The notes under the pieces are model-generated. The model saw only the letters and a list, made by a program, of their open reading frames with translations, ran no database searches and was not told the origin of the DNA. This document shows, piece after piece, positions 2,494-61,664 of a DNA stretch of 64,000 nt. A program made the translations under genes and the position numbers. Every line of letters begins with the position of its first letter. Position 1 is the first letter of the stretch. The DNA lies in contig NC_087245.1 in assembly GCF_037042905.1 (NCBI RefSeq), positions 35,838,001 to 35,902,000 on the forward strand, given 5' to 3'. Source of the DNA: Lytechinus pictus (Eukaryota).

Positions 2494-3201
2494 TCTATTA
2501 ATGTCTGCATATTGGGGAAATAATAATCTCATTGAATATGGAAGTATTAAATCAAGTGTCAAAGAAGGCATCGATATGAAAATATCTTGATCTTAGAATA
2601 GCTGAAAAAGCTATTCAAACTTGGCTCATGTATGAAATATGTACATGTATAGGAGGAATGATGGACTGGTTTGATTTGCGGGGAGGGAGCATGAGGTCAA
2701 AGGTTACAGAGGTCATTAAGACATTGGCATATCTCTTGTTTGATAACTTTAGAAACGTTTTAGGGTTAAACCTCAAACTTGGTTCATTTATGCTTAATAA
2801 TGTAAGTGATTTTAGTCTGTTACGATTTTGGGGTCATAATCAAAGAAATATCACGAGTTAGGTACAATGTATGAAACCTAATCTTGATTTCGCAAATTAT
2901 GCGGAATCATTACTTTCGATTGTACTGTTGAGAGTCCCTCAAGCAGCAATGAAATCAAGGCCGGCCATGGTCTTGACCTCAGGTCGCTTCATATGTACAA
3001 AGTCTATCAATGGGAAAAGATGATCTCTAGTGGCCTTGTGACTGGCAGAAGTATCGGCCTCGTCTATAACCCTTCACATCAGTAATTCATTATCAATCAG
3101 TCTAACATCATAGCGAGAAACAGTTCTATAGACCATTTCGGATTGTAAGGGGTAATAGAAAAAGTTGCAAAATATGTTTTTATGTTATTTTTTATATTCA
3201 G

Positions 3202-3403
3202 ATCATAGTTGTACTTGGTTGGTTGACATCCTTTGCCATTGGAATGTCCCTGGTGTATGGTCTGTATAGTATTTTCGATCACCCAGGGATGGAGCTCGTT
3301 CCTCTGGACAAGACTCTTAATGTTCTGTATGGCAGCATCGGCAAACTTGCCTGGACATTGGCTATGTCCTGGGTAGTCTTCTCCTGTCATCATGGCTACG
3401 GAG
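3202..3403 (+). CDS. NRF-6/O-acyltransferase-like protein, internal exon
   Basis: ttcag acceptor, G|gtaatt donor; IIVVLGWLTSFAIGMSLVYGLY...LAWTLAMSWVVFSCHHGYG; phases match both neighbouring exons. Confidence 0.9.
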
Positions 3404-3976
3404 GTAATTAACTAATCTCCTTAATGGTCACTCCTTAATCGGCGAATATGCAGTCAGTTAGGAATGGAAACGATTTCGTTCCACTTCCTAATTAGTGAAT
3501 TACGTGTGGAACAAGGTTTAGTTTCAATCCTTTATGAGTGGATTCATAGTGAATTTGGAGTGAAAGAAAAGGTTTGATTTCACTCCATAACCTGGAAAAG
3601 ATTAGCTATACTCCTTATTGACTGAATTAATAGCGAATAAAGAGCGTTAAAGAGTTTAGTTTAACTTCTTAATGAGTGAAATTACAGTAAGTAGTGTATG
3701 TAAAAAGTTTTGTGTCACAGCTTAAGGGAATTTATAGTGAAGTTATATTTTCACCACTTAATAAATGAAAAAAAAATGAGTGTAAGTGCATGTCGGACCC
3801 AAAATTGCTCAAAAAAAACATGATTTTGAATGCGTAGTCAATGCAAATTGTGTTTTTATTTTCAACCAAAAATTGTGATTGTATTGATGTTTTGCTAGTT
3901 GAAACAGATTTTTTTATTGATATTTATGATCGCAAAAGGGCCCCCAACATCTCATCTGTATTGTTCATTATTACAG

Positions 3977-4119
3977 GTGTGATAAATCGATTTCTTTCCT
4001 GGAGATTGTGGATCCCTTTGTCTCGATTGACGTTCTGTGCGTATCTACTACATCCTGCTATTATTTATCTCTTCACTGGAACCGTTACAACGAGCTACAA
4101 TGTAACCGTCATCGATCAG
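3977..4119 (+). CDS. NRF-6/O-acyltransferase-like protein, internal exon
   Basis: ttacag acceptor, CAG|gtaggc donor; (G)VINRFLSWRLWIPLSRLTFCAYLLHP is the characteristic NRF-6 family motif. Confidence 0.92.
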
Positions 4120-4667
4120 GTAGGCCAGTGTACAGCATGGTTTACCAAGTAAACTTACTGATTGAAAAGAAAATAATGAATTGTAATATATGGAACAACC
4201 TATTTTCATTTAACCATTGGTGTCGATGACTGACATGTATTTTGTTCTGTGAGGATTTTTAAAGTTAAGGTGTTTTTTTTTTGGGGGGGGGACGGGGTCA
4301 GTGTCGCAACAAGTCCAAGATTTTTAAGGAGCCAGACATGGTATAAAGGGCAGAATCTATATTTAAAAAAGACAGCGGACCGGGCGAGTAAAAATATTAC
4401 CTTTATACAAAAAATGCTGATTAAAAAAATACTCCATCCCTACCTGCATTATGTATTGAATGAGAAAAAATATATTTCACCTTTTTTTGTTTTCCTTTCC
4501 TTTCTTTCCTCCTATGTTGTGGGGAGGGGGTATTCTTTAAGACCGTAGTGTATGTGTTAGCTTATTTCTTCAACAAGACTACATGTAAAGACTAGACCAA
4601 TAATGCGAGCGCGAAGCGTGAGCTGAAACTTGGAAAAAATGACCATACCATTTTGAGGACTCTTGTC

Positions 4668-7369: not shown

Positions 7370-10082
7370 TTTATTTATTTATTTATTTCGTTTTGTTTAC
7401 CCAGGGTAACCCCATCAGTGGACTAAGCACTGTTTTTCTTGGGGGCCCTGCATACAAGTAACAAATACATACATATAATAAATACAAACAATGAAAAACA
7501 AGGAAGAAAATATGTTCAAAGAGACAAGCAACCTGCAGGACATACAGACATACTGAAATACATGTGTGTATAAGTAGAACAAAAGTCAACATATTGTGCA
7601 TATGCAAATCCATATAACTATATATTCCCTATGATCATATGATTATTGATTAATTTTGTGTTTAAATATTTGTTTGCTTGTCCCTGGAACCAGCCAGATA
7701 GGGGTAGTTATTTTAATTCAGTAGTTTCTCGCTCTCCAATAAGATGTAGCGAAGGATTGCCTCGAGACTGCACTACGGGTACCACTATCCAGCTGGTTCC
7801 AGAGAATGGCAGCACTATGAGAAAAGGCCTTTTTTCCAGCCTGTGTGCGTACAAGCGGTACCACTACACCATTCTGGACTGAGTTTCTAGTTCTGTACAA
7901 GTGGACATTACTAGATCTTACTACGAGTTCAGAGAGATATATTGGCGCTTCCTCGTTAAGGATAATGTGTATTGTTTTACATCTATGGTATTTCCACCTT
8001 TCTTCAATCGACACCCATTTGAGTCTATGGAGCACCTGTTCAATAGGTGTAGAAAAATTAACTTTTAGGATTAGACGGGCCGTTTTCTTATGCTGTCTGA
8101 TTAAGCCATCCTTAAGATACTGTGCACACATGCTCCAAGAATTACTACAGTAATCAAAGTACGGTAATATAAGTGAATTAGCTAAGACTTTTGAACTGTC
8201 AATCGTGAGGTATTTTCTAAGCCTACTGAGAAGAGCTATCCGTGAGCCAATCTTCTTCATTGATTCTTCTACATTCTTTTGCCATGTCATGGTATCATCC
8301 ATCCATACACCTAGATATTTATAATTACTGACTCTTTCAAGCACATGGTTATTAACAACTAGGTTAATATCATCACAGGTTGGTAGTTTCCTGGGGGATC
8401 CAAAAATCATGTATTGCGTTTTAGATGAATTTAGCCTCAGATGGTTTTGTGTCAGCCATTTATTCACAAGTTCAAGTTCTTTGTTTAATACTAATTCAAT
8501 CTCATTGATATTTTCAGCACTATAATACAGTATAGTGTCATCAGCATACATCATAATGTGACAATTATCTAGAATGCTGGGTAATTCATTCACCATAAAA
8601 ACAACAGAGGTCCGATAATCGAACCTTGCGGAACGCCTGTCTTGACATTAGTAATGTCAGACAAGGTTCCTTTGACAAATGTACGTTGGGTTCTTCCAGA
8701 TAAGTATGATTGAATCCAGGTAAGCTCTCTGCCTTGAACACCATAGAAGGGAAGTTTCTTTAGCAACAATTCATGACTGACAGAATCAAAGGCCTTTTTA
8801 GGTCAAGATATACGACACCTGTTAGACGGCCATGGTCTATTTGCTTCAGAAGATAATCAGAGAAATAGGTAAGTACAGTATTCGTTGAATGGTTTTTCCT
8901 AAAACCGGATTGCTGTTTTACAAACAGATCATTATCACTAAAATGGGCATGGAGTTGATCATGAACCACTCTTTCAAGAACCTTCATTATGATGGGAATA
9001 ATAGATATCGGACGATAATTATTTGGATCCTGTTTATCACCATTTTTGTATATAGGTGTGACTTTAGCAGTCTTCCATTCATTTGGTATTAGCCCGGTCT
9101 GGAGAGAAACATTGAAAATCTGAGTCAATTGTTCAGATATTATTGGGGCGGCTTCTTTGAGCAATTTAGGGTCCAAACCATCTATCCCTGTTGCCTTTTT
9201 AATGTCCAGTGCTTTCAGAATCTCTAGTACACGCTGAGAGTTGATGTCCGTGAATGCAAAATTATGGTTACAAACAACTCGATGCAAGTTACCGTCATCA
9301 TAATGTTGTGGGGCACCCTCAGATATAACACCAAAATTTGCAAATGAATGGTTTAGGACGTTTGCTATCTCGAGTGGTTCATGAATGTACTCATCATTTA
9401 CTCTTAGACATTCAATGGAAGATTGGACATTACTGCCACTGAGACCTTTCAAGATTTTCCACAGTTGAGCGGGGTTTCGTTTATGCTCAATTATATTAGT
9501 TACATAGTAATCCTTCTTTAAGACATGTCTATAATTATTGATATGATTCCTACAAAAGCGATACTGTTGCCAATGGATACTCAGTCCACTAACTTCTGCC
9601 CTTCTTTTTAGCCTATCCCGTTCATATGATAATTTGATATACTCATCGTTTACCCAAGGTGTTTTTTGCCCTCTTACTCTCATAGTTACTACTGGAGCAT
9701 TTCTATCACAAGATTCTACAAACTCTTGTTTCCATGCATTCCACATTAAGTTAACATCTTGAGTTTGGAGTTGCCTCCCTAAGTCAGTCTTGGAAAGATC
9801 TTCCAAGAAACATTGTGTGTCGAATCTCTTGAAATTACGAAAGATTACAGTTTTGGGTTTAATCTTTGGTCTATGTAATTTCCTTACAAAATACACAAGA
9901 CTATGATCACTCAATCCTTCAGACAGAACACAACTTTCTACAATGTTATGAGAGGTATTTGTTAGAACAATATCAATCAAACTTACACTTGTTTCAGTAA
10001 TTCTGGTTGCACTTTGAATAACTTGTTTCAACTTATGGGTTCTACAGAGTGACAGAATTAACTGTGACTTTTTTAGAAGTCC
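7370..10082 (-). mobile_element. 5'-truncated non-LTR retrotransposon (L2/Crack group of the CR1 superclade)
   Basis: C-terminal part of an AP endonuclease (TRIT..SLID..SDH), RT motifs, 3'UTR with a terminal stem-loop (cagggccccc...ggggttaccctg) and an (AAAT)n tail at ~7370-7388; frame closes upstream at ~10083; no TSD seen. Confidence 0.93.
7718..10082 (-). pseudogene. LINE ORF2 (endonuclease + reverse transcriptase) with two frameshifts
   Basis: NYRPISI, QSGFR, DLK(KAFD), GVPQGSIIGPLLF, YADDT, YKYLGV; frameshifts at ~8795 (A-run) and ~8600 (T-run); the frame between them reads cleanly. Confidence 0.92.
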
Positions 10083-10273: not shown

Positions 10274-11332
10274 TTAGACCTCATCTGATATTCTTCTGAG
10301 GTGATTATGGTGTTTTGTCAATGCCGCTGCAGCTGCTGCTGCTGCAGATGCCCTACGAGTGGTAAGTGGCGACCCGATGAGTCCCTGACGCGGTAAGGTC
10401 GGCGATCGCGGAGACGTCGGTGACATGTGTCCCGATAGTGCCTGAATCTGTAACGGCTTTGAACCTCTGCCATCTAACGGCGATGAAGGGACTGAAGAAC
10501 CCCTCCTTGAAGTCACTGAGGAGTTCACCACGCGTCCTCCTACATGCCCTATGAGATTCGGTTGAGTGTTTTGACGACGAAGTGGTGGTCTCTTCCGTCC
10601 GAGTCTTCCCTGTTGTATCGATTCTATGATATATTGCTTTTCTTCCCAGTCCCGTTTGGTGATCCATCCCAGGGAGTCTGCATCGATCATGTCCATAGTG
10701 CTCCGTCTCATCAGATATCGTGATCGATCACAGTGCTGCCGTGACGGATGATGGTACTCATTCGAATTTGGTAGACTAGTCGAATCGTCACTCGTAACGA
10801 TACTATCCGGTGTGTCGCGTTCGTAGGTCGTGTAATCGGTTTGATCCGGTTCGTCCTCTGCCATACTGGCAAGCCGTGGCGGTCGGCTGTCTTCGGGCGT
10901 CATAAATCCAGGCGAAACGATGCCGAAATCTGACCCGAATTGAATCGAAGCGCGAGTTGGGCTAGTTCGTCTTATAAGAAAATTTTCCGGCGGAGATGGT
11001 GATCCAAACTGTATGCTTTGTCGTCGCTGGAACGATGAAATCCCAACGTGTTCATCTAGATCTAATTCCACATCTTGGTGTTCGCCAAATAGAATGTCGT
11101 CATCCGAAAGAGGCTCCAGTATCGGTAGTTCACCACATATCGATTCCATATCGATATTTCTCGAGTACTCGGTTGGAAGTCGTATCATTGGATTGTGTTC
11201 GGTTAATTTTCTATTTGCTTTGCTATTTCCCTCGGGGTTTTGCTGACGATAAGATGCAATGAGTAGCTTCATGGCTCGTCGAATACCTTTGATTTCCTTT
11301 CTGACAAGATGATGAGCGTCTTTAATGTTATC
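10274..11332 (-). CDS. Terminal coding exon of an uncharacterised coiled-coil/disordered protein
   Basis: 352-codon open frame, GC-richer than its flanks; tcattgcag|GAT acceptor; ends RRISDEV-stop. Confidence 0.8.
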   Translation of the reverse strand, partial: DNIKDAHHLVRKEIKGIRRAMKLLIASYRQQNPEGNSKANRKLTEHNPMIRLPTEYSRNIDMESICGELPILEPLSDDDILFGEHQDVELDLDEHVGISSFQRRQSIQFGSPSPPENFLIRRTSPTRASIQFGSDFGIVSPGFMTPEDSRPPRLASMAEDEPDQTDYTTYERDTPDSIVTSDDSTSLPNSNEYHHPSRQHCDRSRYLMRRSTMDMIDADSLGWITKRDWEEKQYIIESIQQGRLGRKRPPLRRQNTQPNLIGHVGGRVVNSSVTSRRGSSVPSSPLDGRGSKPLQIQALSGHMSPTSPRSPTLPRQGLIGSPLTTRRASAAAAAAAALTKHHNHLRRISDEV

Positions 11333-12204
11333 CTGCAATGATAAAATTAATTTAGAATGATTAAAGAGTATGTGCGCGTGCATTATTTACATTTTCCAAA
11401 TTCATGACTTTGTTTCCATGCACAGGGTTGTAATTTTCTTCTGATAGTGAATCGGAGCTGACTCGGCTGAGAATATCTTTGTTTCTTTCTCAATTTCTTC
11501 CTAATTTCTGCCTTCCTTTCTTTTTTCCTCCCTTTCTTCGCCCCTTTCTTTAATTCTTCCTTTCTTCTCTCTTGTTTTTCCTCTCTTCCTTCCCTCTTTT
11601 CCATTTCTTCTTTCCTTCTTTCTTTCATTTTCCTTAAGTTTGTTTCTTTCATATATTTCATTCATTCATTTATCATGTTTATATTTTTATCTAATTTTGT
11701 TCACTTATTTTATTGAATATTTTTCTTCATTCTCGATTTCCTCCTCTCTATTACCCCCACCCGCTTCTCTTACTATGACTATATATATGTGTATATACAC
11801 ACATGGTATCATAATATCCAAATCGATACATGATTAAAGCGAACAGGTCATGATACCCCAGATCCTATTGAGATCTATTAACGATGTTGACGGGCCCCAA
11901 TCATCAGCGGAGTAGCTTTTGAATAAGACAAGAAAAAAGATATACGACCTCCACATGCGGCATATTGTCGCCATATTCTTTATATCATTGATTTTACACA
12001 GCTTTATGACTTCGGGGTGAGTTGAGAAAAGAACAATGTGAACGAGTAGACAGTATAACTGTAATGTTTCGAATGTTCCACCACTTGCCCGTCGGCTCTT
12101 TTGGTGTATCTAATTTTAAACTGGTAATTTGGCATTATAGGGCACAGCTCCCTGCTAATTGCTTTCCCGGGGTCGAACCACGTTTCTGTATTTTAATCCA
12201 TATA

Positions 12205-17281: not shown

Positions 17282-17559
17282 ATTAGCAACAGAAGAAAAA
17301 AGAAGAAGTAAAAGAAGAAGAAGAAGAAGGAAAAGAAGAAGTAGACGACGAAAAAAACCCAAATTATGAAGAAGAGTAGGAAAAACAAGTAATAGTAAAA
17401 CAATTATTCATTAAAAAAATTAGCATGGTGGAAATGTCGAAAGATTTACTTACAAAGTAGTTGTTCTCTTCTACGCATGCGTTGCCTTTCAAAAAACATC
17501 CAACTATTCGTTCAGGTAGGTCTATTATCCATTTTCATTAACAGATCTTTAAAAAGATA

Positions 17560-17937
17560 TACACAAGGTGCCCAAATTTCTATATTAGTTAGTGATGTCC
17601 ATAAAGAAACTTGATTTTGAGCACCTCCTCTTCGAAACGAGTCGATTGAAGATGAGCATTTGAGGCCAATCCTTGATCTTTTTGCTCGGGTCCTTCCCCG
17701 GTCCTTCCAAGAAGGGCCTCGATCAATCACGCACCTCTTACTTCAAGTGTCTTCGGATTACAGTGTGTATTTGAGTTTTGTCAGACGTGTATCAATCAGA
17801 TATGATTATTTACGTCTGGGACCGACCTTTAACGTCACCATCCGAAAGACGTGACCAGGGCTCGAACCTCGAACCTCTGCATCAATTTGTAACTTCCCCA
17901 CAGCTTGGATTACAGGCGCACGCCACAACGCCCAGGC
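17560..17937 (-). mobile_element. Candidate 7SL-RNA-headed SINE (Alu-like head + B-box + Deu-like body)
   Basis: Minus strand starts GCCTGGGCGTTGTGGCGTGCGCCTGTAATCCAAGCTGTGGGGA (cf. human 7SL GCCGGGCGCGGTGGCGCGTGCCTGTAGTCCCAGCTACTCGGGA), then GGTTCGAGCC, then GTCTTTCGGATGGTGACGTTAAAGGTCGGTCC. Confidence 0.7.
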
Positions 17938-20324
17938 TTGGCGTGTTTCGCTTTCACTGATCAGCGCAAACAATTAGGAGAATTTAGTCGCTAGCTTAAC
18001 AACAGTCTCGACGTAAAGAGGTGACTCTCTCCATGCTCTCCCTCTTCTATTTTGCTACCAAAAGATCGATGATGACTGAATGAACGTCATTAGGAAGCAT
18101 TCGGCCTTCTTTCGGTTGTTTCTTTGTCCCAGTAGGGCGGAGCTAAAACATGAATATATCAAGGGTTTTTGATATAATACTCTCAATAAAACAACTGATA
18201 TCACGCGACGGAATATGAACATGATGAATATAAATGCCCTCCTGGGCGATACCATACGTGTCGTACGGGACATTTCTATAATTTCTAGTCTCTTAGCAGA
18301 CGGCTTGAGCAATACATTTTATTTTTTTGCCAATGATAAAGTTATAGTGGGTAGTCATGTAGAAAACTGATAACCAACGAAAGACAATTGATTATGGGCG
18401 AATTAAAGGTGAAAATGATGTGTGTCATACGGCACTCAGAAATGCCCCGTACGACACTCAACATTTTCACCTGTAATTCACCCATGGACAACATAATTTG
18501 GTTGTCATTTATTTACATGGCTACCCAGTGGTACGTCATTTTTACCACAAAACAAATTGAAGTTTCTCGTTTGTTTGGACAGCAGGTCGAAAAATATGAA
18601 AATGGCTGATTTTTCTAGCATGGAATCGCCGTTCCTCGATGGCATTCATGTAGTTTGTAAAACAAGCAATGCATCTTTTCAAGCATGCAGGTAAATGGCA
18701 TTCGAATAAAGAACCCACTGAAATTGTTCAAAGAATGACTGTGACTCTCATTGCACTATCACTGTACTCAGAGGCGGTTCTTTAGAGGGTTATAGGGACT
18801 TGTGACTTTTCGAGTGTTAAAAAGAAAGAAAAGTGTCAAAAAGAGGGGTCCAGTTATGTAACTGTACATTGCCCCTATTTATTCAATTGAAAAGCAAAGA
18901 TGGCGTCAACTTTTCTCTGGGAACACTGCCAGGGCTCTTGTGATGCACCCATCACAAATTCATAGGGAATTTTCCAAACTATGCACCTAGTTATTATAGG
19001 ATCTTTCCTGGTAATATTCTTAATTAGAATGATACTAATTATGTCACTTTTCATTTGAAAAAAAAAACATGTTTGGACTGTAGAGCATCGAATATAAATG
19101 TTGATGGACATAAGAATTACCATATTCTTCCTTCTTATATATTAATTTACTTTGAAATTATACCAATGTCACAATAATATTTCATTGTGATGTCATGATA
19201 ATTTAACAATAATGATTACTTTAAAGAGTTATGATCGTACCAGTTCGTTGGTGTTAATTACGCTCTAAATATTGAGATAATGAATACATGGGTTGCGGTG
19301 CAGTAAGACTATTTATTGGAGCAGTAAAAATATTGGTTAATGAACTCCCAATATTCAATATCGACAGCCGATTAAATAAAAAAAATGTTTGGACAGTTAC
19401 TAATATACACCGTGGGAGGTACTTTATTCTCATATTATATCCGTTTCATTTGAATGAGCGCGTTCTTCGGTAAACTGCAACTCTTAATTCGACAGACGAG
19501 TAGATTGCAATTATTCTTTGGAAATGGAGTATAAAGGGAATTGTTTGAATTTAACAATGATAAACTAACAATTACGCTTGAAAGGCCAATAGTCTCGCGA
19601 CAAGAATTATTTCTTTATGATTGGGTCTTGAAATGGTTCCATGACATTTGCTCCGGCGACAATTGCTCTGCTGCAAATTCCACACATTAATGGAGACCAA
19701 CCTTAACCCTGGATTTAACAATATAACATATCCACTCTCATATTTTGTGTACAGAAAACTGTATTGGTATAATGCTTAACGCTAAATAATATCCCAAAAT
19801 TATCATATTTTTTATTTCATCAAACAACTTATACATTAAAATCTATTCAAAGAGAAATTTTGATCGAAATTTGCCTTTCTTTTCCTATTTTTTCAAAGGA
19901 TTTGACTTGGGAGCCAGTTGAGAGCTCTTCTCCTGCCGATACCAGAGGCTCTTGGTAATTGTCAAATAAATTGATAGAAACGGTAAATATAAAAATCAAA
20001 CGATATGAATATAAGGATTTATAAATTATTCCAAAAAAATGTGTATGTTTTCTGGTGGTTTTAAGACATATAAACATTCTTTCACCCTTTCCCACCCCCA
20101 ACAAACTGATTGGGAAAAGGCAGATTAAAAGTCCACAAAGAATTTAATATAGGCGTATCATTTTATTTTTGATAGTTGGCAGACGTATACAGATTTGTTC
20201 ATGAACTAGACCTAAATATATTACTTAAAAATTTAGATTAAAATCAAGCCTGTTGTCGCCTAAGTATTCAGGAGACAGCCGCCTGTCACTTTATTCAACA
20301 TCATGAAATCATGGAGTGGCATAC

Positions 20325-21055
20325 ACCCTATCGTAGAACCCATCTACACCAGACACAGCACCATACAACCCATCGACACCAGACACGGCACCATACAACC
20401 CATCGACACCAGACAAAACACCATACAACCCATCAAAACGAGACACGGCACAATACGACCCATCTACACCAGACACAGCACCATACAGCCCATCTACACC
20501 AGACGCAACACCATACAACCCATCTCCACCAGACACAGCACCATACAACCCATCTACACCAGACACGGCACCATACAACCCACCTACACCATACAACCAA
20601 TCGACACGAGACACGGCACCATACAACCCATCGACACCAGACACAGCATTGTACAACTTATCTACACCAGACACAACACCATACAACCCATCTACACCAG
20701 ACACAGCACCATACAACCCGTCGACACCAGATACGGCACCATACAACCCATCGACACGAGACACAGCACCATACAGCCCATCTACACTAAACACAGCACC
20801 ATACAACCCATCTCCACCAGATACAGCACCATAAAACTCATCTCCACCAGATCAGACACAGTACTATTCAACCAATCTTCACCAGACAACAATAGCGTAC
20901 AACCCATCTACGCTAGGCACAGCACCATACAACCCATCGACACCAGACACGGTACCATAAAACCCGTCGACACCAGACACAGCACCTACAGCCCATCTAC
21001 ACCAAGCACATCATCTTATAACCTATCGACATCAGACACAGCCCCAGTTGACACC
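20325..21055. repeat. 30-bp minisatellite, roughly 23-24 units (ccatacaacccatc[tg]acaccagacac[ag]gca)
   Basis: Direct periodicity; the stop-poor unit produces ORFs on both strands. Confidence 0.95.
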
Positions 21056-26546: not shown

Positions 26547-27036
26547 GGTTACACTTCGTAATTCCGAAGGTTCTTTATTCCGAAGGTTCGTAATTCCGAA
26601 ACACGTAAATTGCCTATACCTCGATGTTCGTTAATCCGAAAAATTAAAAGGGTTCGTTAATCCGAACATTTGTGGCGTTATTCCGAAGGTTCGTTATTCC
26701 GAAGGTTCTATAATCCGAAAACGAAATAAAGTTCGTTGTTCCGAAGGTTCTTTAATCCGAAAACAAAATAAGGTTCGTTGTTCCGAAGGTTCATAAGTCC
26801 GAAAACGAAATAAGGTTCGTTAATCATTTCGTTTTCGGACTAACGATCCTTCGGAATTTCGAACGTCATTTCGTTTTCGGATTAACGAAACTTCGGAATT
26901 ACGAACCTCACTTCGTTTTCGGACTAACGAACCTTCGGAATTACGAACCTTCGGAAATACGAACCTTCGGAATAACGAACCTTCGGAATATCCGAACCTT
27001 CGGAATAACGAAGCTTCGGAATTACGAATGTATGCG
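26547..27036. mobile_element. Foldback/MULE-like element with tandem-repeat inverted arms and a 9-bp TSD
   Basis: Left arm of ttccgaaggttcgt units, right arm of acgaaccttcggaa units; atatacaag at 26538-26546 and 27037-27045. Confidence 0.8.
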
Positions 27037-31651: not shown

Positions 31652-33204
31652 TCAATCCTTGATGATGCCGATTCTTCGTCCAAAACCTTTAACTATGAAT
31701 ATAAACTTTTTAATGATGAGAGCAATACACATCGACGTCACTGCCATACCGATCATTGTATACACACAGCAAGCGATTAAGCTAGTCAAATTTGTGTCAG
31801 GTACTAGATCACCAAAACCAATGGTAGTTAGTGTGATAAAACAGAAATAGAATGCGTCGAAGAAATCCCAGTTGTTCTCTAACATAGAGAATAAAATGGC
31901 ACCGGAGGTTATGTAGCTAAATAGAAGGAGTAAGACGGGCCACATTGGGATATCAGCTACCTCAAGGCTCCTTGTACCCCGTCCTTCGCTAGTGTCTGAT
32001 TCACTACCTTCATAGATTGTTCCTAATTCATCATCGAGCTGATCCCCTCGACGACCTTTCTTTTTCCGTTTACCCTTTCCCTTTCGGCCACCTTCACGTA
32101 CGACCTCAGCCTCTGGTTGAACAGGAAGTGGACGAGGATCGAAACCTTTATTTGCGATGTCGTGAAGGAGTTTGGTGTTTTCCCCACAAGATAACTCGGG
32201 TAGAGCAAAAGCCAAGTCTTCGCGACTACTACCAAGAATCTTGTCATAAGTGGCTAAACGTATTGCAAGAGTAGAGTCTATAAGCTTTAGCTTTCTATGA
32301 TGGTGTAATGAATAAAGACTTGGTGGTTTCATTAGAATCTTTTTCCGCGCTCTCCGCTTCCTTGGAAAAGTGTTACCATGTCTATGATTGACTCCAAGAT
32401 TGGAGCGATCAAGAGAAGCATTACCTTCACTCTGAGCATAGTCCCTTCGTCGTTTCCGACGTTTTTCTGCTCTAGGATAGGTCTGCGACCCTGACTGATT
32501 ATACCTTGACGCTGATGAGCTTTGTCTTGATATACTCTTCTGTTCTGAAGGTGGTCGACTTGAATCACCTTCACTTCCGTCTCCTTCCTTCCTCTCCTCC
32601 CCCTCGCTGCTTCCTTTATCAAACTGACGGAATTCAATGCACGACTGCTGTCGAGGGAAAGACGAACGATTTTGTTTCCCGCTACCCAACTCAACACTCG
32701 ACTCTGCGCGACTGGTTGTCGGGAATGGCTGCGAGCTGGCGGAATCATAACTGTCACTCTTTGCAAGCGATGGCGATCGCCTGTCCGTCTCTGACGCGGT
32801 GCAGAGTGAAGCTGTATCACTCTTAGTATCGTCGACTGATCCTTGACCAATCTCTTCACTGATGGGACGAGGAAGATTGATCAAGGATTGTTGACGTGGT
32901 GTACTACCAAGACTACGACGAGAGCTCTGTGTGTCCGAAAACACATCCTCCTCTTCATCATTGCCTTCTGCTAATCTATCGGCCATCTCATTCGATTCTG
33001 CGTAAGGGGGTGGTAATCTAGGATCACTTGAGGATACTATATCCATGTTGAGAGATAAAGGACGTTGGTTGGTTAGTTTGGTCTGATTGTCCATGTTAAC
33101 GATTGTTTGGCGATGAGACTGAGAATTCTTCTTGTTCCCCCTTTTTGATCCCTTTCGAACTTTCTTCTGGCTTGAAGGAGCCCCCTTGGCTGATTTGGTG
33201 CTAC
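31652..33204 (-). CDS. Two-pore-domain K+ channel (TRESK/KCNK18- or TWK-like), terminal exon: long M2-M3 loop, M3, P2, M4
   Basis: Polypyrimidine tract..acatag acceptor at 33205-33206; WDFFDAFYFCFITLTTIGFGDLVP second pore motif; hydrophobic M3 and M4; very short C-terminus. Confidence 0.95.
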
Positions 33205-33802
33205 CTATGTGTTTTGAAAAAAGGAGAGAAATCAGTTTATAATAAGCATGTCTGCAAGAATAGTTGTGGGTATTTTTTGTTTATTTATTTATTACGTCTT
33301 ATTTTATCACGGTACATGACTCTGTCAGTGGGTCAAACACTGTTATACTTAGAGGCCCTGAAATACAATAACGAAAATACATTAGAAAAACAACAACAAC
33401 ATGTACATGAAACTTATTGTCAACTACAAATAGTTCTAAGAGTGGAGTCAGCAACCTCATGGTGTCTGGCATGTGAATTTGTTTATTGTTATTGATATTT
33501 AAATATATATATGATGTATTTTACTGTATTTGTCGTATTGTATACTGTATTTTGTATTGTCGTTGTCCAGAGTCAAGAGATTTTGATGCTGTCCCGGTCC
33601 ACCAACTTTCGACAAAAACGTCTCTCCATTGTGATTTGACTTTCATTCATAAAGGAATTTGTGCGTTGTAGAGAGATTCTCCGTAGTTAAAGCGAAATGT
33701 CCGAAATGACGAGAAATGGAGAGGTAGGCGGGAAAGTGGGAGGTAGAGAGAAAGGGGTATAGGGAAGGGAAATTGAGTCAGTCAATAAATGTAAACCTGT
33801 AC

Positions 33803-34048
33803 CTTTTCGCTGTAATGTTTTCTTTGCTTGTTTTTTCCTCTTCTTTTTCTTTTTGGTTTTGTTCCTCTTTCCGCACCGAAGTCTCTTGCAGAGTCGACTG
33901 GTGTACATTCTGTAGAGTAGCCGAGCTGATGTCGCCATCACTCGGCCAACATTGGTCAGGACTAATAACATGAGAGGAATACCGAGCAATGCGTAGAACA
34001 TGCAGAATAGCTTGCCTATTATCGTCAGCGGTGAGACATGTCCGTATC
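33803..34048 (-). CDS. K2P channel internal exon: end of P1 and M2
   Basis: ctccgcag acceptor; (G)YGHVSPLTIIGKLFCMFYALLGIPLMLLVLTNVG; AAAG|gtacag donor, phase 1, joins in frame to the terminal exon. Confidence 0.93.
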
Positions 34049-36971: not shown

Positions 36972-37225
36972 GGGTCGTGTGGTCCAGTGGTTAGAGCATT
37001 GGACTCATAATCGCAAGGTTGTGAGTTCGAATCCCAACTCTGCCATTGTCTCCACTTTGATAATAAAGGCCTACGAGTGATATCTGTCGTCTATTACGTC
37101 AGCCACTATGACTGATTAACCTAGACGTAAACATGTTTCCAAGGTAATTGGTTATATACCAGCTTGGCGTTTACCAGCAAAATGCTGTCCTGCCGAGTTC
37201 CTACGGGAGTTACCACAAACAGAAA
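36972..37225 (+). mobile_element. tRNA-derived SINE
   Basis: gggtcgtgtggtccagtggttagagc..gagttcgaatccc head; acceptor stem does not pair and a non-tRNA body follows. Confidence 0.7.
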
Positions 37226-38504
37226 CATAATAAACAATGGATGGATACATATAAATAGATAGAGAGTGTGAGAGAGAAATAGAAAACGAGAAAGATAAAG
37301 AGATAACGATGAGAGAAAAATGATGGATGAAAATTAGAGGGAGAGGTACGTAAGACCGCCTTTCGTATCTTTCTTACCAAGAATCTTCAAATATACCTAC
37401 GCTTTTTTTATTTGTTAAAGGGGATCTAAAAAAAAGTTGCGTAAGAAAATGATAACGTAAAAATTAGATTTATCCCAATAACTTTTACAAAATCTAATGA
37501 AAACGAAGTTAGTCGACTAGTCTACCAAATTCTTTGGACGATAAAAAAAGAGCAATGATGAAGTGAGACGTAGAAAAAGGCTTCCTCGTACATGTACATG
37601 TATGTATGTTCCTGAAAGTTCCTCCAAGATATTAGGCTTATGACAATTTGAAAAGGATGAATTACATGGATAAGTATACTCCCTGCTGTAATTTCATCAT
37701 TTTTTTATCTTGCTTGTGTAGCAGAGCGCTATGAACAGGTTGCGCTTACACAATCATGATATAACCTGTGAAACAATTTTCTCATGGTATAGCAGCTATC
37801 ATTCACATTTTCACCATTCAAAAGGTGATGCGTACATGGGTGTTGAGCATCTTACAGTGGCACCCTCGCATCCAGCTTTCTTGGGGCGTCCCCGTTTGTC
37901 ATCGCCTCGTAATGTCACGGTAAGTTCGTTTGGTTTGGAGGTTGCTCTTACAATCATGTTCATTATTCACCTTTCTCTACACACTACATGATCACATTCA
38001 CCCCCCTCCCCCCGATATACACTCACACTCTCTCACCATTCCATTGTTCCCATGTCATATTCAATTATCATCAAATTCATTTGAAATTAATTTCATGAGG
38101 AATTAAAAGTTGCTTCATGAAATGGGAGGAGGAAGCTACGATAAAACATTGAACAAAATTGGATAAACCTTAAAAAAGTTATTTATGTTTTACAAAACTT
38201 TTGTGTACAGTTTAAATCTGTATTACACACACACACACACATAGGGAAGTCAAATTTGACGCATAGGTTATGTTTTATCATGAAGGGGATAAAGTCAATT
38301 ATACCCTACTTAATCTATAACGTAAATAGCCGAAACCCCTCCCCCCCCCGCTTTTCAATATTTTTTTAAAATTTAATCATATTTGTATTTATGAAGATAT
38401 ATAATGATGTGTTGTATGTTATATCTTGGTTACCACCCCAAGGTATACTTCGGAGAAAATCACAATTTTTTTTATAATAAAGGAGATAACAATTGGAGAA
38501 CATA

Positions 38505-38748
38505 CACTGCAAAAACTCCGGTGTTGATTTAACACCAGCCCGGAATCTATATATATGTCCACACCAGAGAAGTATTGAAACAACACCAGTTTGGAATCAA
38601 ACCGATGCTGTTTTAATTCTAATTGGTGTTGTATAAACACCTATTTGGTGTTAGACCAAAACGAAACTGGTGTTGTTTAACACTTCTCTGGTTTGGACAT
38701 ATATAGATTCTGGGCTGGTGTTAAATCAACATCAGAGATTTGGCAGTG
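38505..38748. mobile_element. EnSpm-like palindromic MITE, family A
   Basis: ta|cactgcaaaaactccggtgttgatttaacaccag ... ctggtgttaaatcaacatcagagatttggcagtg|ta. Confidence 0.8.
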
Positions 38749-38908
38749 TACATGTTTGATATATCGGATCAGTGTAACAACTTAAACACGAGGTTGCCAA
38801 GTCAAGCTTAACATAGGTGTGTAATTGACCACCCGCCCCCGTTAAGGTAACTCATCAACTTACAGTGAAGGCGAGACGACCAAGGATCTTTAAAATGATT
38901 TGCTGGTG

Positions 38909-39152
38909 CACTGCAGAAACGCCGGTGTTAATTCAACACCAACCTGGTATATCTATCTCGGAAAACACCAGAGAAGTGTTGAAACAACACCAGTTTAGAA
39001 TCAAACCGATATTGTTTTAACACTATTGGTGTTGCTTAAATGTCTATCTGGTGTTAGCCTAACGCCAAACCGGTGTTGCTTTAACACCTCTCTGGTGTTT
39101 ACCGGGATAGATACCAGACTGGTGTTAAATTAACACCGGCGTTTTTGCAGTG
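38909..39152. mobile_element. EnSpm-like palindromic MITE, family A, second copy
   Basis: cactgcagaaacgccggtgttaattcaacacca ... tggtgttaaattaacaccggcgtttttgcagtg. Confidence 0.8.
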
Positions 39153-39204
39153 TAGTATTGATGGAGTATAATAATTGAGTATTCTTATTCTCCACATGTC
39201 AGTC

Positions 39205-53670: not shown

Positions 53671-56600
53671 TTACTCTCATTGTATTACCTGTTAAGTACC
53701 TCAAAAACCTCGACCGGTATGGTACGAAATTCTTTATAGAAATTGATATTGTTTTAATTTGTCATCACCACACTTATTCCATCATAAAAACGTAAACAAG
53801 GGGCAAACGACATAATTGCAATTTTTCGTCATCTCAAAATCTTACGACGATCAGCAGCTGTCCTGGTTCACCAATTTTCGACAAAGGTCTCTCAGCTGTT
53901 CATTGTAATTTGACAGGTATTTTCAATAGATTTAATATGTTGTAGAATCCGTCCCCGTTGCGATTGCGAAAACTTGCTATTGTCAATTGCAAACAACTTT
54001 CAATCAAGTAAATAGTCTGCCAACAGCGCTATACAAAATCAAGGCCTAGTTTCCTTAACATAGAGTTTGAGTCATCACCTTTTCAAAACAAAGCCGTGAT
54101 TCTCCTCATGGTATTAAAAATGTAAAGGTTATATATATACAGCGTTTAGAAACAATGCGTATTAAGCGCTTTATAAAATGTTGTATATTCATTTATTGTA
54201 TGTATTTATATGTTTCTCGCGTCATAGTGGCAAAAATCGCAAGTAGAAAAGGGTGATGAACTTTTTATAATGCATTGCGCCATCACGTGTACGACTAGAG
54301 CATAACCGAATGATTCCGCTAGCTGTCGATGCTTTTTCTTTATTACGCTGCACACCTCATTCATGTTCAGGAAATTCGATATCACCTCTTCTAAATGAAA
54401 ATGGGGGAATAATTTTGTAATCCTTCCTGTAAAGGCGTGAAATCTCATTTATCGCTCGATGTTCCATGCACCTTAGAAATTCAAGTCATGCAACATATTA
54501 ACTTTTGGATTGTACCCCCTACATAGAACAAACAAACAAAACACCAATGGTATCGCAGCGAATTACCTCTGTTCTTTTTATCGAACCATGTCCCACCTTT
54601 TTTTTTTTTTAGATATATATATATTTTTTTATTCAAGACCCTATTTTCGATTATCTACTTATTTGTATTTTTGTTTCTCTAAACCTGATCATGTTAGTTG
54701 ATAATGTACTCATGTACGATTAAGATAGATATGACTGCATGATAGCGAGCAAATGGTTACTAAGTCTGGGATAAATAAGATAAGACATCAACCGGGTATA
54801 TTTTTTTCCAAGCCTGGACCAAAATGTCCGACCAATACGTCGACGGTTTCTTATTGTCTGGCGGGGGAGGGGGTATAGATTGCAGTTTTTCCCTTCTCCA
54901 TCTGTGTCATTTTGCATTATGATTTATTTTTCTTTACGATTTATATTCTTTATTATATATATATTGTGATCAATTGTGTAATTCAACCGCCAAACTCTGT
55001 ATAACGGGTCCCAAATGATTGTGGGATGGAAGGCGATCATTCTTTTTGATTTCCCTTGAAATTGATTTCCTTCCATGAATCCTGGCGAAATTAGTGTGTT
55101 TTTGTCCAAGAGGAACGCAATGTAAGGTCGGGTCCCACTGTCCGACAGACACAAGACGTACTCAACAGCGGACAAGCAACATTTCGGGATGGCTTCATCC
55201 ATTTTCATCCGCCCCAGACAATGGACAAAATGGGCGAACAATGAAATCACATTGGACAGATGCTCGATGGATATAGAGCGTATGAATCGCGTATGCAACG
55301 AGTACACAACGGATACATAACGTTTCCCAAACGGATGGCAAGATTCTTTTTCGTTTTACATACTCTCTGCATCCGTAAGTGCAGTAGGACCGACCAAACC
55401 TTAACGGTCAAACTCAGCCATAAGCTCAGATAAAGTCACAAAACCTTTCCGTTATTCGGATAGATCGGTTTCTTATTGTTTTTACGCTGTGTGCTGGCAA
55501 TTGAACTCACGTAGACGATGCCGTCGTCAAGAGAGAATTTTTTTTTCGAAGTGGCAGCCTTTTTCTAATAAAATATTCTTAAATAAACTATATATAATAT
55601 AATATAGTATGTAATTTAATATTATGAACCGAATTTCATTCCAGCTTACAAAGTACTTCATAACCAAAGCTATACCTCCCCATACCAGTTGTCCCGTTCG
55701 AATTGATCACACCATTACCATCAGTGAGTGACGTTTGTATTTAACATACCTTGAACATGGCAATATGTGTGATGCATTGGACCCCGCAATTGGCACCGTC
55801 TTCGTCACTTTCTTGAACAGAGCTATTCAATATTGACGGACGCAAGACGAAAATGATTTTACCCAGGCTTACTTATCGATTTTAACACGAATTCAGCTGC
55901 CCATGCTTGCTGAATTAGGTTTGTTACATTAATGTAGAGAAAACAGTGCCATCACTTCACGTGCGTAATTTCACACCACAACGTAGTATAGAGCTGGAAG
56001 GCCCCTTCTCTATCTTCCCCATACCCTTTGTTCGACACTTTTCCATTTTTAAGTCCGACCCACGTCTAACAACAGTACATCATCCAATGTTTAAGAGAAA
56101 AGAACAAAATGTAAATGATCACCCAAAACATGAACCTACCAAAGACGGACTATTATGACACATTTTTCAAACATGACTAAAATGGGGGAAAAAACGTAGT
56201 GACGAATAAAGTTTTCCTTCTTGGTCCTATAGCCCCCCCCCTAACTCTCTCTATCATTTTACTAATGGTTACTATTGACTGATCTGATATATTCACCCCC
56301 CGAAAAAAAAAAAAAAAGACCGATGGTTTGGGACCGACTCCGGACCGACAAAATTTATAACGCTATTTTCAACGTTATATCATCGGTCGGTTTGAAGCTG
56401 GCCTCGCTGAGGTGCCGATAGCATCAGCGTAGATAACTGGCCATGGTGACCCACAGCTATTTGTGCTGTTTCCCATATTATGCATTCGAAACAGGTATCT
56501 TTTATCTTTTATTTCTTCCTATTTTTGGTGGAGGGGGGGGGGGCAGTGGGTGTGGCAATAACATGGGGATCAGTCTGTCTCTTTTACACCCATCTCATAT

Positions 56601-61466: not shown

Positions 61467-61664
61467 CACTCTTGAAAATGTTGGGCAACATATACTGTCC
61501 CCACAACAATTGGTTAAAACTTTATCAAATTCTGAGTAGTTTTAAACCAATAATGTGTGCTTCGGGTGAAAACTACACAGTATTGGTTTAAAAATACCCA
61601 GAGTTGGATAAACTTGTTAACCAATTGTTGTGTGGACAGTATGTTGCCCAACATTTTAAGAGTG
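61467..61664. mobile_element. EnSpm-like palindromic MITE, family B
   Basis: cactcttgaaaatgttgggcaacata..ctgtcc / ggacagtatgttgcccaacattttaagagtg. Confidence 0.75.

What the first reader, a model, noticed from the sequence alone, without database searches (positions are those of the whole stretch)
17560..17937. Candidate Alu-like (7SL-headed) SINE with a Deu-domain body in an invertebrate genome
Seen: the minus strand begins GCCTGGGCGTTGTGGCGTGCGCCTGTAATCCAAGCTGTGGGGA, closely matching the first ~43 nt of SRP/7SL RNA (the Alu-domain 5' hairpins). It then leaves 7SL, carries a Pol III B-box (GGTTCGAGCC), a segment GTCTTTCGGATGGTGACGTTAAAGGTCGGTCC...GACACTTGAAGTAAGAG, and ends with a hairpin (AGGTGCTCAAA/TTTGGGCACCT). 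Established, from memory: the middle segment resembles the Deu domain of AmnSINE1/DeuSINEs, and 7SL-derived SINEs are known mainly from Euarchontoglires (Alu, B1) with isolated reports in hagfish and amphioxus. Inference: an independent origin of an Alu-like SINE by head swapping onto a DeuSINE, possibly binding SRP9/14 as Alu does. I cannot confirm that it is undescribed.
Basis: partly seen in the sequence, partly recalled or inferred. Interest (0 to 1): 0.75.

Follow-up and report, generated by a model that had tools for sequence, protein, structure and literature searches.

The report
Sea urchin SINE with 7SL head
This is a 175-base jumping element in a sea urchin genome whose front end looks copied from the signal-recognition-particle (7SL) RNA, as in human Alu, and grafted onto the rest of an ordinary tRNA-type element, an origin so far described only in a few vertebrates.

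Summary
The head is real: 43 bases on the minus strand match Rfam Metazoa_SRP positions 2-43 of 299 (25.8 bits, E 1e-4); no SRP match lies in the other 63 kb. The window is Lytechinus-like sea urchin. The element is about 175 bases (17937-17763), not 378. Its 85-base body is 87-98% identical to three metagenome contigs with other flanks and no SRP head; all four carry the B box at the same place. So the 7SL 5' domain replaced the front of a tRNA-type SINE, which kept its B box. Only the 5' block of the Deu domain is present. The 3' hairpin lies outside the element and is ordinary. The retained piece matches the 46-base Alu domain that binds SRP9/14 and suffices for retrotransposition (PMC11760393). 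Papers read list 7SL SINEs only from supraprimates, hagfish and shrew mole. Copy number, the host's 7SL, expression and partner LINE were not tested here. This scan noted the same family before at many other places in this genome (about 1,300-1,600 copies; unchecked notes). Repbase, Dfam and one amphioxus paper could not be checked.

The parts
17893..17937 (-). 7SL (SRP RNA) 5' Alu-domain-like head: the two 5' hairpins and their closing helix; holds the presumed Pol III A box (7SL positions 6-15 by PMC7245038)
   Evidence: Rfam Metazoa_SRP positions 2-43 of 299 at 17935-17893, 25.8 bits, E 1e-4; the 5' end at 17937 is inferred from the model start, not from other copies
17869..17892 (-). 24-base linker, probably the 3' part of the parent's tRNA-derived head; its last bases are the first copy of a 7-base tandem duplication that runs into the B box
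   Evidence: 9 of 10 bases match the head of L003 at nearly the same distance from the B box (39 of 2000 shuffles reach the score); no such match to L001 or L002
17858..17868 (-). Pol III B box in a tRNA T-arm-like setting, inherited from the tRNA-type parent
   Evidence: The B-box-like 11-mer starts 13 bases before the body in the window and in L001, L002 and L003 alike (alignment)
17819..17855 (-). 5' block of the body, Deu/Nin/Inv-like
   Evidence: 28 of 37 columns match AmnSINE1_HS as printed in Fig. S4 of PMC7245038 (compared by eye); nearly invariant in L001-L003
17771..17818 (-). 3' part of the body with a predicted stem-loop (7-pair outer stem, 5-6-pair inner stem); candidate recognition site for the partner LINE
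   Evidence: Shared with L001-L003; consensus fold, with no change on both sides of any pair of this stem-loop, so the fold is predicted only
17763..17770 (-). Short CA-type simple-repeat tail; 3' end of the element
   Evidence: BLAST homology ends at 17763 (L002), 17766 (L001), 17771 (L003); L002 continues in (CA)n, L003 in (CCAA)n
17560..17762 (-).
   Evidence: No BLAST match to L001-L003 better than E 0.09; hairpin at chance level; no T run of 4 or more until 17555

Best explanation
One copy of a sea urchin SINE family that arose when the first ~45 bases of a 7SL transcript replaced the front half of the tRNA head of an existing SINE (template switch or recombination; inferred). The new element has a hybrid Pol III promoter, A box from 7SL and B box from the tRNA-type parent (positions shown; activity inferred). 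Its RNA should fold the 5' Alu domain, bind SRP9/14 and be carried to ribosomes, where it can capture the reverse transcriptase of a LINE that recognises the 3' stem-loop and simple-repeat tail (inferred from Alu and from other SINE-LINE pairs). Odds by step: chimeric structure 0.9; amplified family in this genome 0.85; SRP9/14 binding aids its spread about 0.55.
For: Shown: SRP match starting at the model's 5' end, directly in the head position, with no SRP match elsewhere in the window. Body 74/85, 80/85 and 83/85 identical to L001, L002, L003, whose flanks are unrelated to each other and whose heads give no SRP match. Same B-box register in all four. The L003-like linker starts 2 bases after the SRP match ends. 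12 of 13 model pairs hold. L002 shares a second repeat with this window (79-85% to 55124-55391), so the non-SRP-headed form occurs in a genome with a related repeat set. From papers: nucleotides 1-46 of the Alu domain bind SRP9/14 and give ~86% of Alu retrotransposition, but lack a B box and so cannot amplify on their own (PMC11760393); this element supplies a B box from another source. Head swaps are known for hagfish SINE1, SINE3 and SINEU. Earlier notes of this scan report ~1,300-1,600 copies in this genome (unchecked, not counted as a test).
Against: Only 1 copy in the 64-kb window; none of the 3 relatives found has the 7SL head, so I saw no second 7SL-headed copy myself. No target-site duplication: best flank match 5 bases. 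The head does not fold better than shuffles (194 of 200 fold as well), and the three loop positions before the last helix differ from the SRP consensus in this copy. The heads of L001-L003 are tRNA-like only by A/B-box motifs read by eye: ARAGORN finds 0 tRNAs in 3 loci and Rfam lists no tRNA at E up to 10. The 7SL match (43 bases) is shorter than SINEBase's 60-base rule. No partner LINE found: the tail has no match above chance in the window, including its LINE copy. The Alu result is from human cells with L1 and a poly(A) tail, which this element lacks.
Confidence: 0.62

Rival explanations
1. Same chimeric SINE family, but the 7SL piece serves only as a donor of a strong A box and start site; SRP9/14 binding plays no part in its spread.
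For: The piece holds the 7SL A box (positions 6-15). This copy departs from the SRP consensus at three loop positions and one pair. 5S and snRNA heads were added to SINEs with no SRP link. The tail is not poly(A), so the Alu model of competing with L1's tail does not carry over directly.
Against: An A box needs ~15 bases, yet the match runs to the end of the 5' domain (position 43) and stops there, the same unit that binds SRP9/14.
Confidence: 0.24
2. A one-off chimera: a 7SL 5' fragment joined to a single SINE copy during one insertion, or lying next to it by chance, and never amplified.
For: One copy in 64 kb; 0 of 3 relatives carry the head; no target-site duplication; such chimeric retrocopies are known.
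Against: The join is clean and leaves a plausible A-B spacing of about 50 bases. Earlier notes describe the same 170-190-base structure at many other places in this genome, some windows with 2-3 copies (unchecked).
Confidence: 0.07
3. The stretch is a 7SL pseudogene or divergent SRP RNA gene, or a locus exapted as a host non-coding RNA of ~380 bases running to the first T run.
Against: Only 42 of 299 SRP positions match, far below the gathering score; what follows is a SINE body shared with L001-L003 and ending in a simple repeat; the downstream hairpin is at chance level.
Confidence: 0.04
4. The head is an artefact: a chance match, a decayed tRNA head that resembles 7SL, or a human Alu fragment mis-assembled into the contig.
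For: Score is below Rfam's gathering threshold; scaled to the whole window E would be about 0.01 (my scaling).
Against: 34 of 42 identities at the very start of the model and exactly in the head position; tRNA not listed; an Alu would continue beyond position 43, whereas this runs into a body shared with L001-L003; neighbouring gene is 98% Lytechinus.
Confidence: 0.03

Closest known systems
SINE1-1_EBu (Ebu1-1), hagfish Eptatretus burgeri (Kojima 2020, PMC7245038; parts 1-3 of 4 and supplement 1 read)
   Same: 7SL head put on an older tRNA-type SINE; non-L1 type of 3' end with a simple-repeat tail; 26 of 27 letters equal in the core of the head (by eye).
   Different: Hagfish keeps 96 bases of the 7SL 5' end with its own box B plus the 7SL 3' end (whole Alu domain) and a bipartite RTE tail. 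Here only ~45 bases of 7SL, B box from the tRNA-type parent, a Deu-like 5' block, partner unknown.
Alu, B1, Tu (Euarchontoglires) and Urop of the shrew mole (Kosushkin et al. 2026, PMC13023118; parts 1 and 3 of 5 and passages read)
   Same: 5' Alu domain at the start of the RNA; Pol III A and B boxes.
   Different: These all come from a central ~183-base deletion that keeps both ends of 7SL, end in poly(A) and use L1. None of that is seen here. The paper notes that the leftmost unit of tree shrew Tu II/III may be of dual 7SL and tRNA origin, the nearest precedent for a hybrid head.
Minimal Alu domain SA46 (Moldovan et al. 2024, PMC11760393; part 1 of 8 and passages read)
   Same: Same extent of 7SL (about positions 1-46).
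   Different: SA46 is an engineered RNA driven by an outside promoter in human cells; this is a natural element with a borrowed B box. Binding here is untested.
DeuSINEs / Nin / Inv superfamily (AmnSINE1, EbuSINE1, sea urchin SINE2-3_SP)
   Same: 28 of 37 columns match the 5' block of the Deu domain (by eye); Inv is described as the 5' part of Nin, itself part of Deu, and occurs in echinoderms.
   Different: The other ~95 bases of the Deu domain are missing from the element; known members have tRNA or 5S heads.
5S-headed Deu SINEs (SINE3, AmnSINE1) and SINEU
   Same: A small-RNA 5' piece added to or replacing a tRNA head.
   Different: The donor here is 7SL and the promoter stays of the A-B type, split between two donors.

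Membership tests
SINE (SINEBase definition, PMC3531059) | Short (<1 kb) element with head, body and simple-repeat tail | tested here: met
   About 175 bases; boundaries
SINE (SINEBase definition, PMC3531059) | [quoted passage not shown] | not testable with these tools
   No genome held; 1 copy in 64 kb; body in 3 other contigs with unrelated flanks; earlier notes say ~1,300-1,600 (unchecked)
SINE (SINEBase definition, PMC3531059) | At least 60% identity to tRNA, 5S or 7SL over at least 60 bases | tested here: not met
   7SL match is 43 bases at 34 of 42; no 60-base tRNA match listed; the head is split between two donors
SINE (general) | Target-site duplication | tested here: not met
   Best match between 63 bases upstream and 86 downstream is 5 bases; some LINE clades leave none
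SINE (general) | 3' end shared with a partner LINE | tested here: inconclusive
   No match above chance within the window; no LINE library available
SINE1 (7SL-derived head) | 5' part derived from 7SL RNA | tested here: met
   Rfam Metazoa_SRP 2-43, E 1e-4, tRNA not listed; controls
SINE1 (7SL-derived head) | Head closest to the host's own 7SL gene | not testable with these tools
   No genome held
Alu/B1/Urop/Ebu1-1 type | Both ends of 7SL kept around a central deletion (whole Alu domain) | tested here: not met
   Match stops at position 43 of 299; no 3' 7SL match in 17400-18100; feature
Alu/B1/Urop/Ebu1-1 type | Box B from 7SL positions 76-86 | tested here: not met
   B box sits in the register of the non-SRP-headed relatives
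Alu/B1/Urop type | Poly(A) tail, L1 mobilisation | tested here: not met
   Tail is a short CA-type repeat
Alu-domain RNAs | Binds SRP9/14 | not testable with these tools
   12 of 13 model pairs hold; needs a binding assay
DeuSINE | Central Deu domain of about 130-140 bases | tested here: not met
   Only the first ~37 columns match (28 of 37 by eye against Fig. S4); the element ends ~55 bases later
Inv / Nin 5' sub-domain | Match to the Inv or Nin consensus | not testable with these tools
   Consensus not available; relation of the domains
SRP RNA gene (Rfam RF00017) | Full-length match at 70 bits or more | tested here: not met
   25.8 bits, 42 of 299 positions

The most novel reading that the evidence does not exclude
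A fourth independent origin of a 7SL-derived SINE, the first outside chordates, built by a new route: not central deletion of 7SL but capture of only the 46-base SRP9/14-binding module, which completes a hybrid promoter with the B box of a tRNA-type SINE and gives the RNA ribosome access that lets it exploit a stringent, non-L1 LINE. It would be nature's version of the engineered minimal Alu domain.
Probability: 0.45. Interest if true: 0.78.

Novelty: new variant of a known kind. Interest (0 to 1): 0.62.

Why it matters
7SL-derived SINEs are called exceptional: three origins are in the papers read, all vertebrate, all by nearly the same central deletion. A sea urchin family would show that the deletion is not the only route and that the 5' domain alone is what recurs. 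It also offers a natural paired test of an open question: whether SRP9/14 binding is a general aid to retrotransposition or a special feature of Alu, L1 and poly(A). The same body exists with non-SRP heads (L001-L003), so head type can be compared on one body.

Tried and rejected
No genome was held and no read-level data were obtained, so copy number, start site, strand and expression stay open. The body motif found 0 matches in genome contigs and 0 in viral contigs. L001-L003 lie in no held record, so their organisms are unknown. Sequence and place look-ups of earlier findings were blank although word look-ups found the family, so those blanks say nothing. A profile of the 4 bodies found only the element itself in the window (next best E 0.58). 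The tRNA-Arg-headed copy at 16161-15960 is only weakly like the body (22 of 500 shuffles reach the score) and the tRNA-Val-headed copy not at all (69 of 500). 0 of 52 open frames scanned in 11.4-31.6 kb hit Pfam (52 of 64 listed; repeat-derived frames left out, frames over the element's head not listed), so intron or intergenic position is undetermined. The 3' hairpin was rejected as a terminal feature. The body motif occurs in 0 papers' main text and not in the one supplement searched. SINEBase supplements, Kojima's supplement 2, Repbase, Dfam and the amphioxus paper were not seen and may bear on novelty.

Full report
Setting. The window is 64 kb of repeat-rich animal DNA at 33-46% GC. A two-pore potassium channel exon at 31652-33277 (minus) is 98% identical to Lytechinus variegatus LOC121406483, with Diadema, Patiria and Asterias proteins next, so this is a Lytechinus-type sea urchin. 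No whole genome was held, and no read data were obtained.

The head. At Rfam's gathering thresholds the window gives 1 match, a tRNA at 855-927. In 17400-18100 the best of 3 matches at E up to 10 is Metazoa_SRP, positions 2-43 of 299, at 17935-17893 on the minus strand: 25.8 bits, E 1e-4. tRNA is not listed. Counting on that alignment, 34 of 42 positions equal the consensus, one base is inserted, 12 of 13 model pairs hold, one pair has changed on both sides, and the short junction between the two hairpins is intact; three positions of the second loop differ. That this junction and the loop-loop pairs are the SRP9/14 contact is recalled, not from a call. As control, the other 63.3 kb give 12 Rfam matches at E up to 1 and none is SRP. 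By eye the core of the head equals hagfish SINE1-1_EBu copies at 26 of 27 letters. Folded alone the head is no more stable than shuffles (194 of 200), so structure rests on the model alignment.

The body and true extent. One 21-base body motif found 3 metagenome contigs, L001-L003, and none in two other collections. Over 17855-17771 they are 74/85, 80/85 and 83/85 identical to the window and 73-80/85 to each other. Homology ends at 17763-17771, where L002 runs into (CA)n and L003 into (CCAA)n; L001 ends with its contig. Flanks are unrelated. The element is therefore about 175 bases, 17937-17763. Its hairpin has an 11-pair stem, as do 18 of 149 random stretches. The first T run of 4 or more is at 17555, so a Pol III transcript of this copy would read through about 380 bases. 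No target-site duplication was found.

The swap. L001-L003 give no SRP match (0 Rfam matches at E up to 1; heads alone, no SRP or tRNA at E up to 10; ARAGORN 0 of 3). Their heads are tRNA-like only by A- and B-box motifs read by eye; L002's best-placed match is the tRNA-like mascRNA model at E 1.9. In all four sequences the B box starts 13 bases before the body. Ten bases of the linker match L003's head at 9 of 10, at nearly the same distance from the B box (39 of 2000 shuffles; none for L001, L002), starting 2 bases after the SRP match ends. The simplest reading is that the 7SL 5' domain replaced the front half of a tRNA-derived head, leaving a promoter with the A box from 7SL and the B box from the parent, about 50 bases apart. 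Direction of the swap is inferred from 3 non-SRP heads against 1 SRP head and from the rarity of 7SL heads. The organisms of L001-L003 are unknown; L002 shares another repeat with this window at 79-85%.

Deu domain. Against AmnSINE1_HS in Fig. S4 of PMC7245038 the first 37 columns of the body match at 28, by eye. The printed domain is 131-142 bases; the rest is absent from the element. Inv is described as the 5' part of Nin, and Nin as part of Deu (PMC5804259, passages; PMC5786205, passages), so 'Deu/Nin/Inv-like 5' block' is the defensible label. An 18-of-24 match to the second Deu block lies just past the tail (17758-17735) and is undecided. The 3' part of the body folds into a stem-loop in the consensus, with no change on both sides of any of its pairs among 4 close sequences.

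Mechanism. Shown: the chimeric layout and the boundaries. Inferred: Pol III transcription from the hybrid promoter; folding of the 5' Alu domain; SRP9/14 binding; ribosome access; capture by a LINE through the 3' stem-loop and repeat tail. The main outside support is PMC11760393 (part 1 of 8 and passages): bases 1-46 bind SRP9/14 in extracts and give about 86% of Alu retrotransposition, against 7-12% for the 3' part or the first 20 bases, but lack a B box and so cannot amplify. This element keeps that unit and has a B box from elsewhere. The caveat is that those assays used L1 and poly(A). The chief rival is that the 7SL piece only supplies an A box.

Copy number. I saw 1 copy in 64 kb. Earlier notes of this scan describe 170-200-base 7SL-headed copies at many other places in the same genome, with estimates of about 1,000-1,600 copies and a head of 44-47 bases matching the host 7SL (17 different notes shown; 42 fit the first look-up). 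They are unchecked AI notes. They agree with my independent length and head extent and raised my odds for a family, but I could not test them. At that number and a genome near 0.9 Gb (size recalled), about 0.1 copy per window is expected, so one copy is no argument against.

Literature. PMC7245038 (parts 1-3 of 4, supplement 1) calls the hagfish family the first evident SINE1 outside Euarchontoglires. PMC13023118 of 2026 (parts 1 and 3 of 5, passages) adds Urop, names hagfish as the sole earlier exception, and never mentions urchins, amphioxus or invertebrates. PMC10886601 and PMC8466645 (passages) say the same. Sea urchin SINEs tabulated in PMC3747384 (passages) all have tRNA heads. Passages of PMC4758252, PMC3531059, PMC4494074, PMC9191728 and PMC11481361 report no invertebrate 7SL family. 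Ten searches listed no paper on a 7SL-headed echinoderm SINE; most listed papers were seen as titles and abstract starts only. Kosushkin and Vassetzky 2020 on amphioxus SINEs was seen only as a reference and was not retrieved; I recall that it may report a tRNA-plus-7SL dimer, which would remove 'first invertebrate' but not 'first non-chordate' or the layout. Repbase, Dfam and SINEBase sequences were not searchable.

Verdict. A real 7SL-headed chimeric SINE copy, shorter than first described. It works like the 5' half of Alu mounted on a tRNA-type SINE; it is not a member of the Alu/B1/Urop/Ebu1-1 type, nor a full DeuSINE. New variant of a known kind; interest 0.62.

Noticed in passing
window 929-~670 (-): tRNA-Val-like head (Rfam 36.7 bits; ARAGORN) followed by a body that resembles the Meta-domain consensus printed (by eye): probably a Meta-SINE copy.
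   Followed up: partly
window 16161-~15960 (-): tRNA-Arg-like head followed by a block weakly like the finding's body (22 of 500 shuffles): probably another Deu-type SINE.
   Followed up: partly
window 36973-37045 (+): tRNA-like match at 29 bits; likely a third tRNA-headed SINE.
   Followed up: no
window 7718-10082 (-): LINE copy with the reverse-transcriptase domain split over two frames; its 3' region shows no match above chance to the element's tail.
   Followed up: partly
window 31655-34001 (-): Two-pore potassium channel gene with a long intracellular loop, 98% to Lytechinus variegatus LOC121406483.
   Followed up: yes
window 10274-11386 (-): 370-codon open frame that looks like a real exon, no Pfam match.
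   Followed up: no
window 3106-4152 (+): Exons of an acyltransferase-3 family gene (weak Pfam match on one of two frames).
   Followed up: no
window 55124-55391 and L002 182-534: A shared repeat with inverted ends, 79-85% identical; in L002 it abuts the SINE head and seems to have cut its 5' end.
   Followed up: partly
L001, L002, L003: The 85-base body is 86-98% identical across four records whose heads differ markedly: either a very conserved domain or repeated head exchange on one young body. L003 has a 9-base insertion in the tail stem-loop.
   Followed up: partly
window 17758-17735 (-): 18-of-24 match by eye to the second block of the Deu domain, directly after the element's tail; chance or a remnant of an older Deu SINE.
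   Followed up: partly
window 20337-21046; 26550-27032; 38503-39154; 61467-61664: A 30-base tandem array and several palindromic MITE-like repeats; three of the latter score as plant miRNA hairpins below threshold.
   Followed up: no
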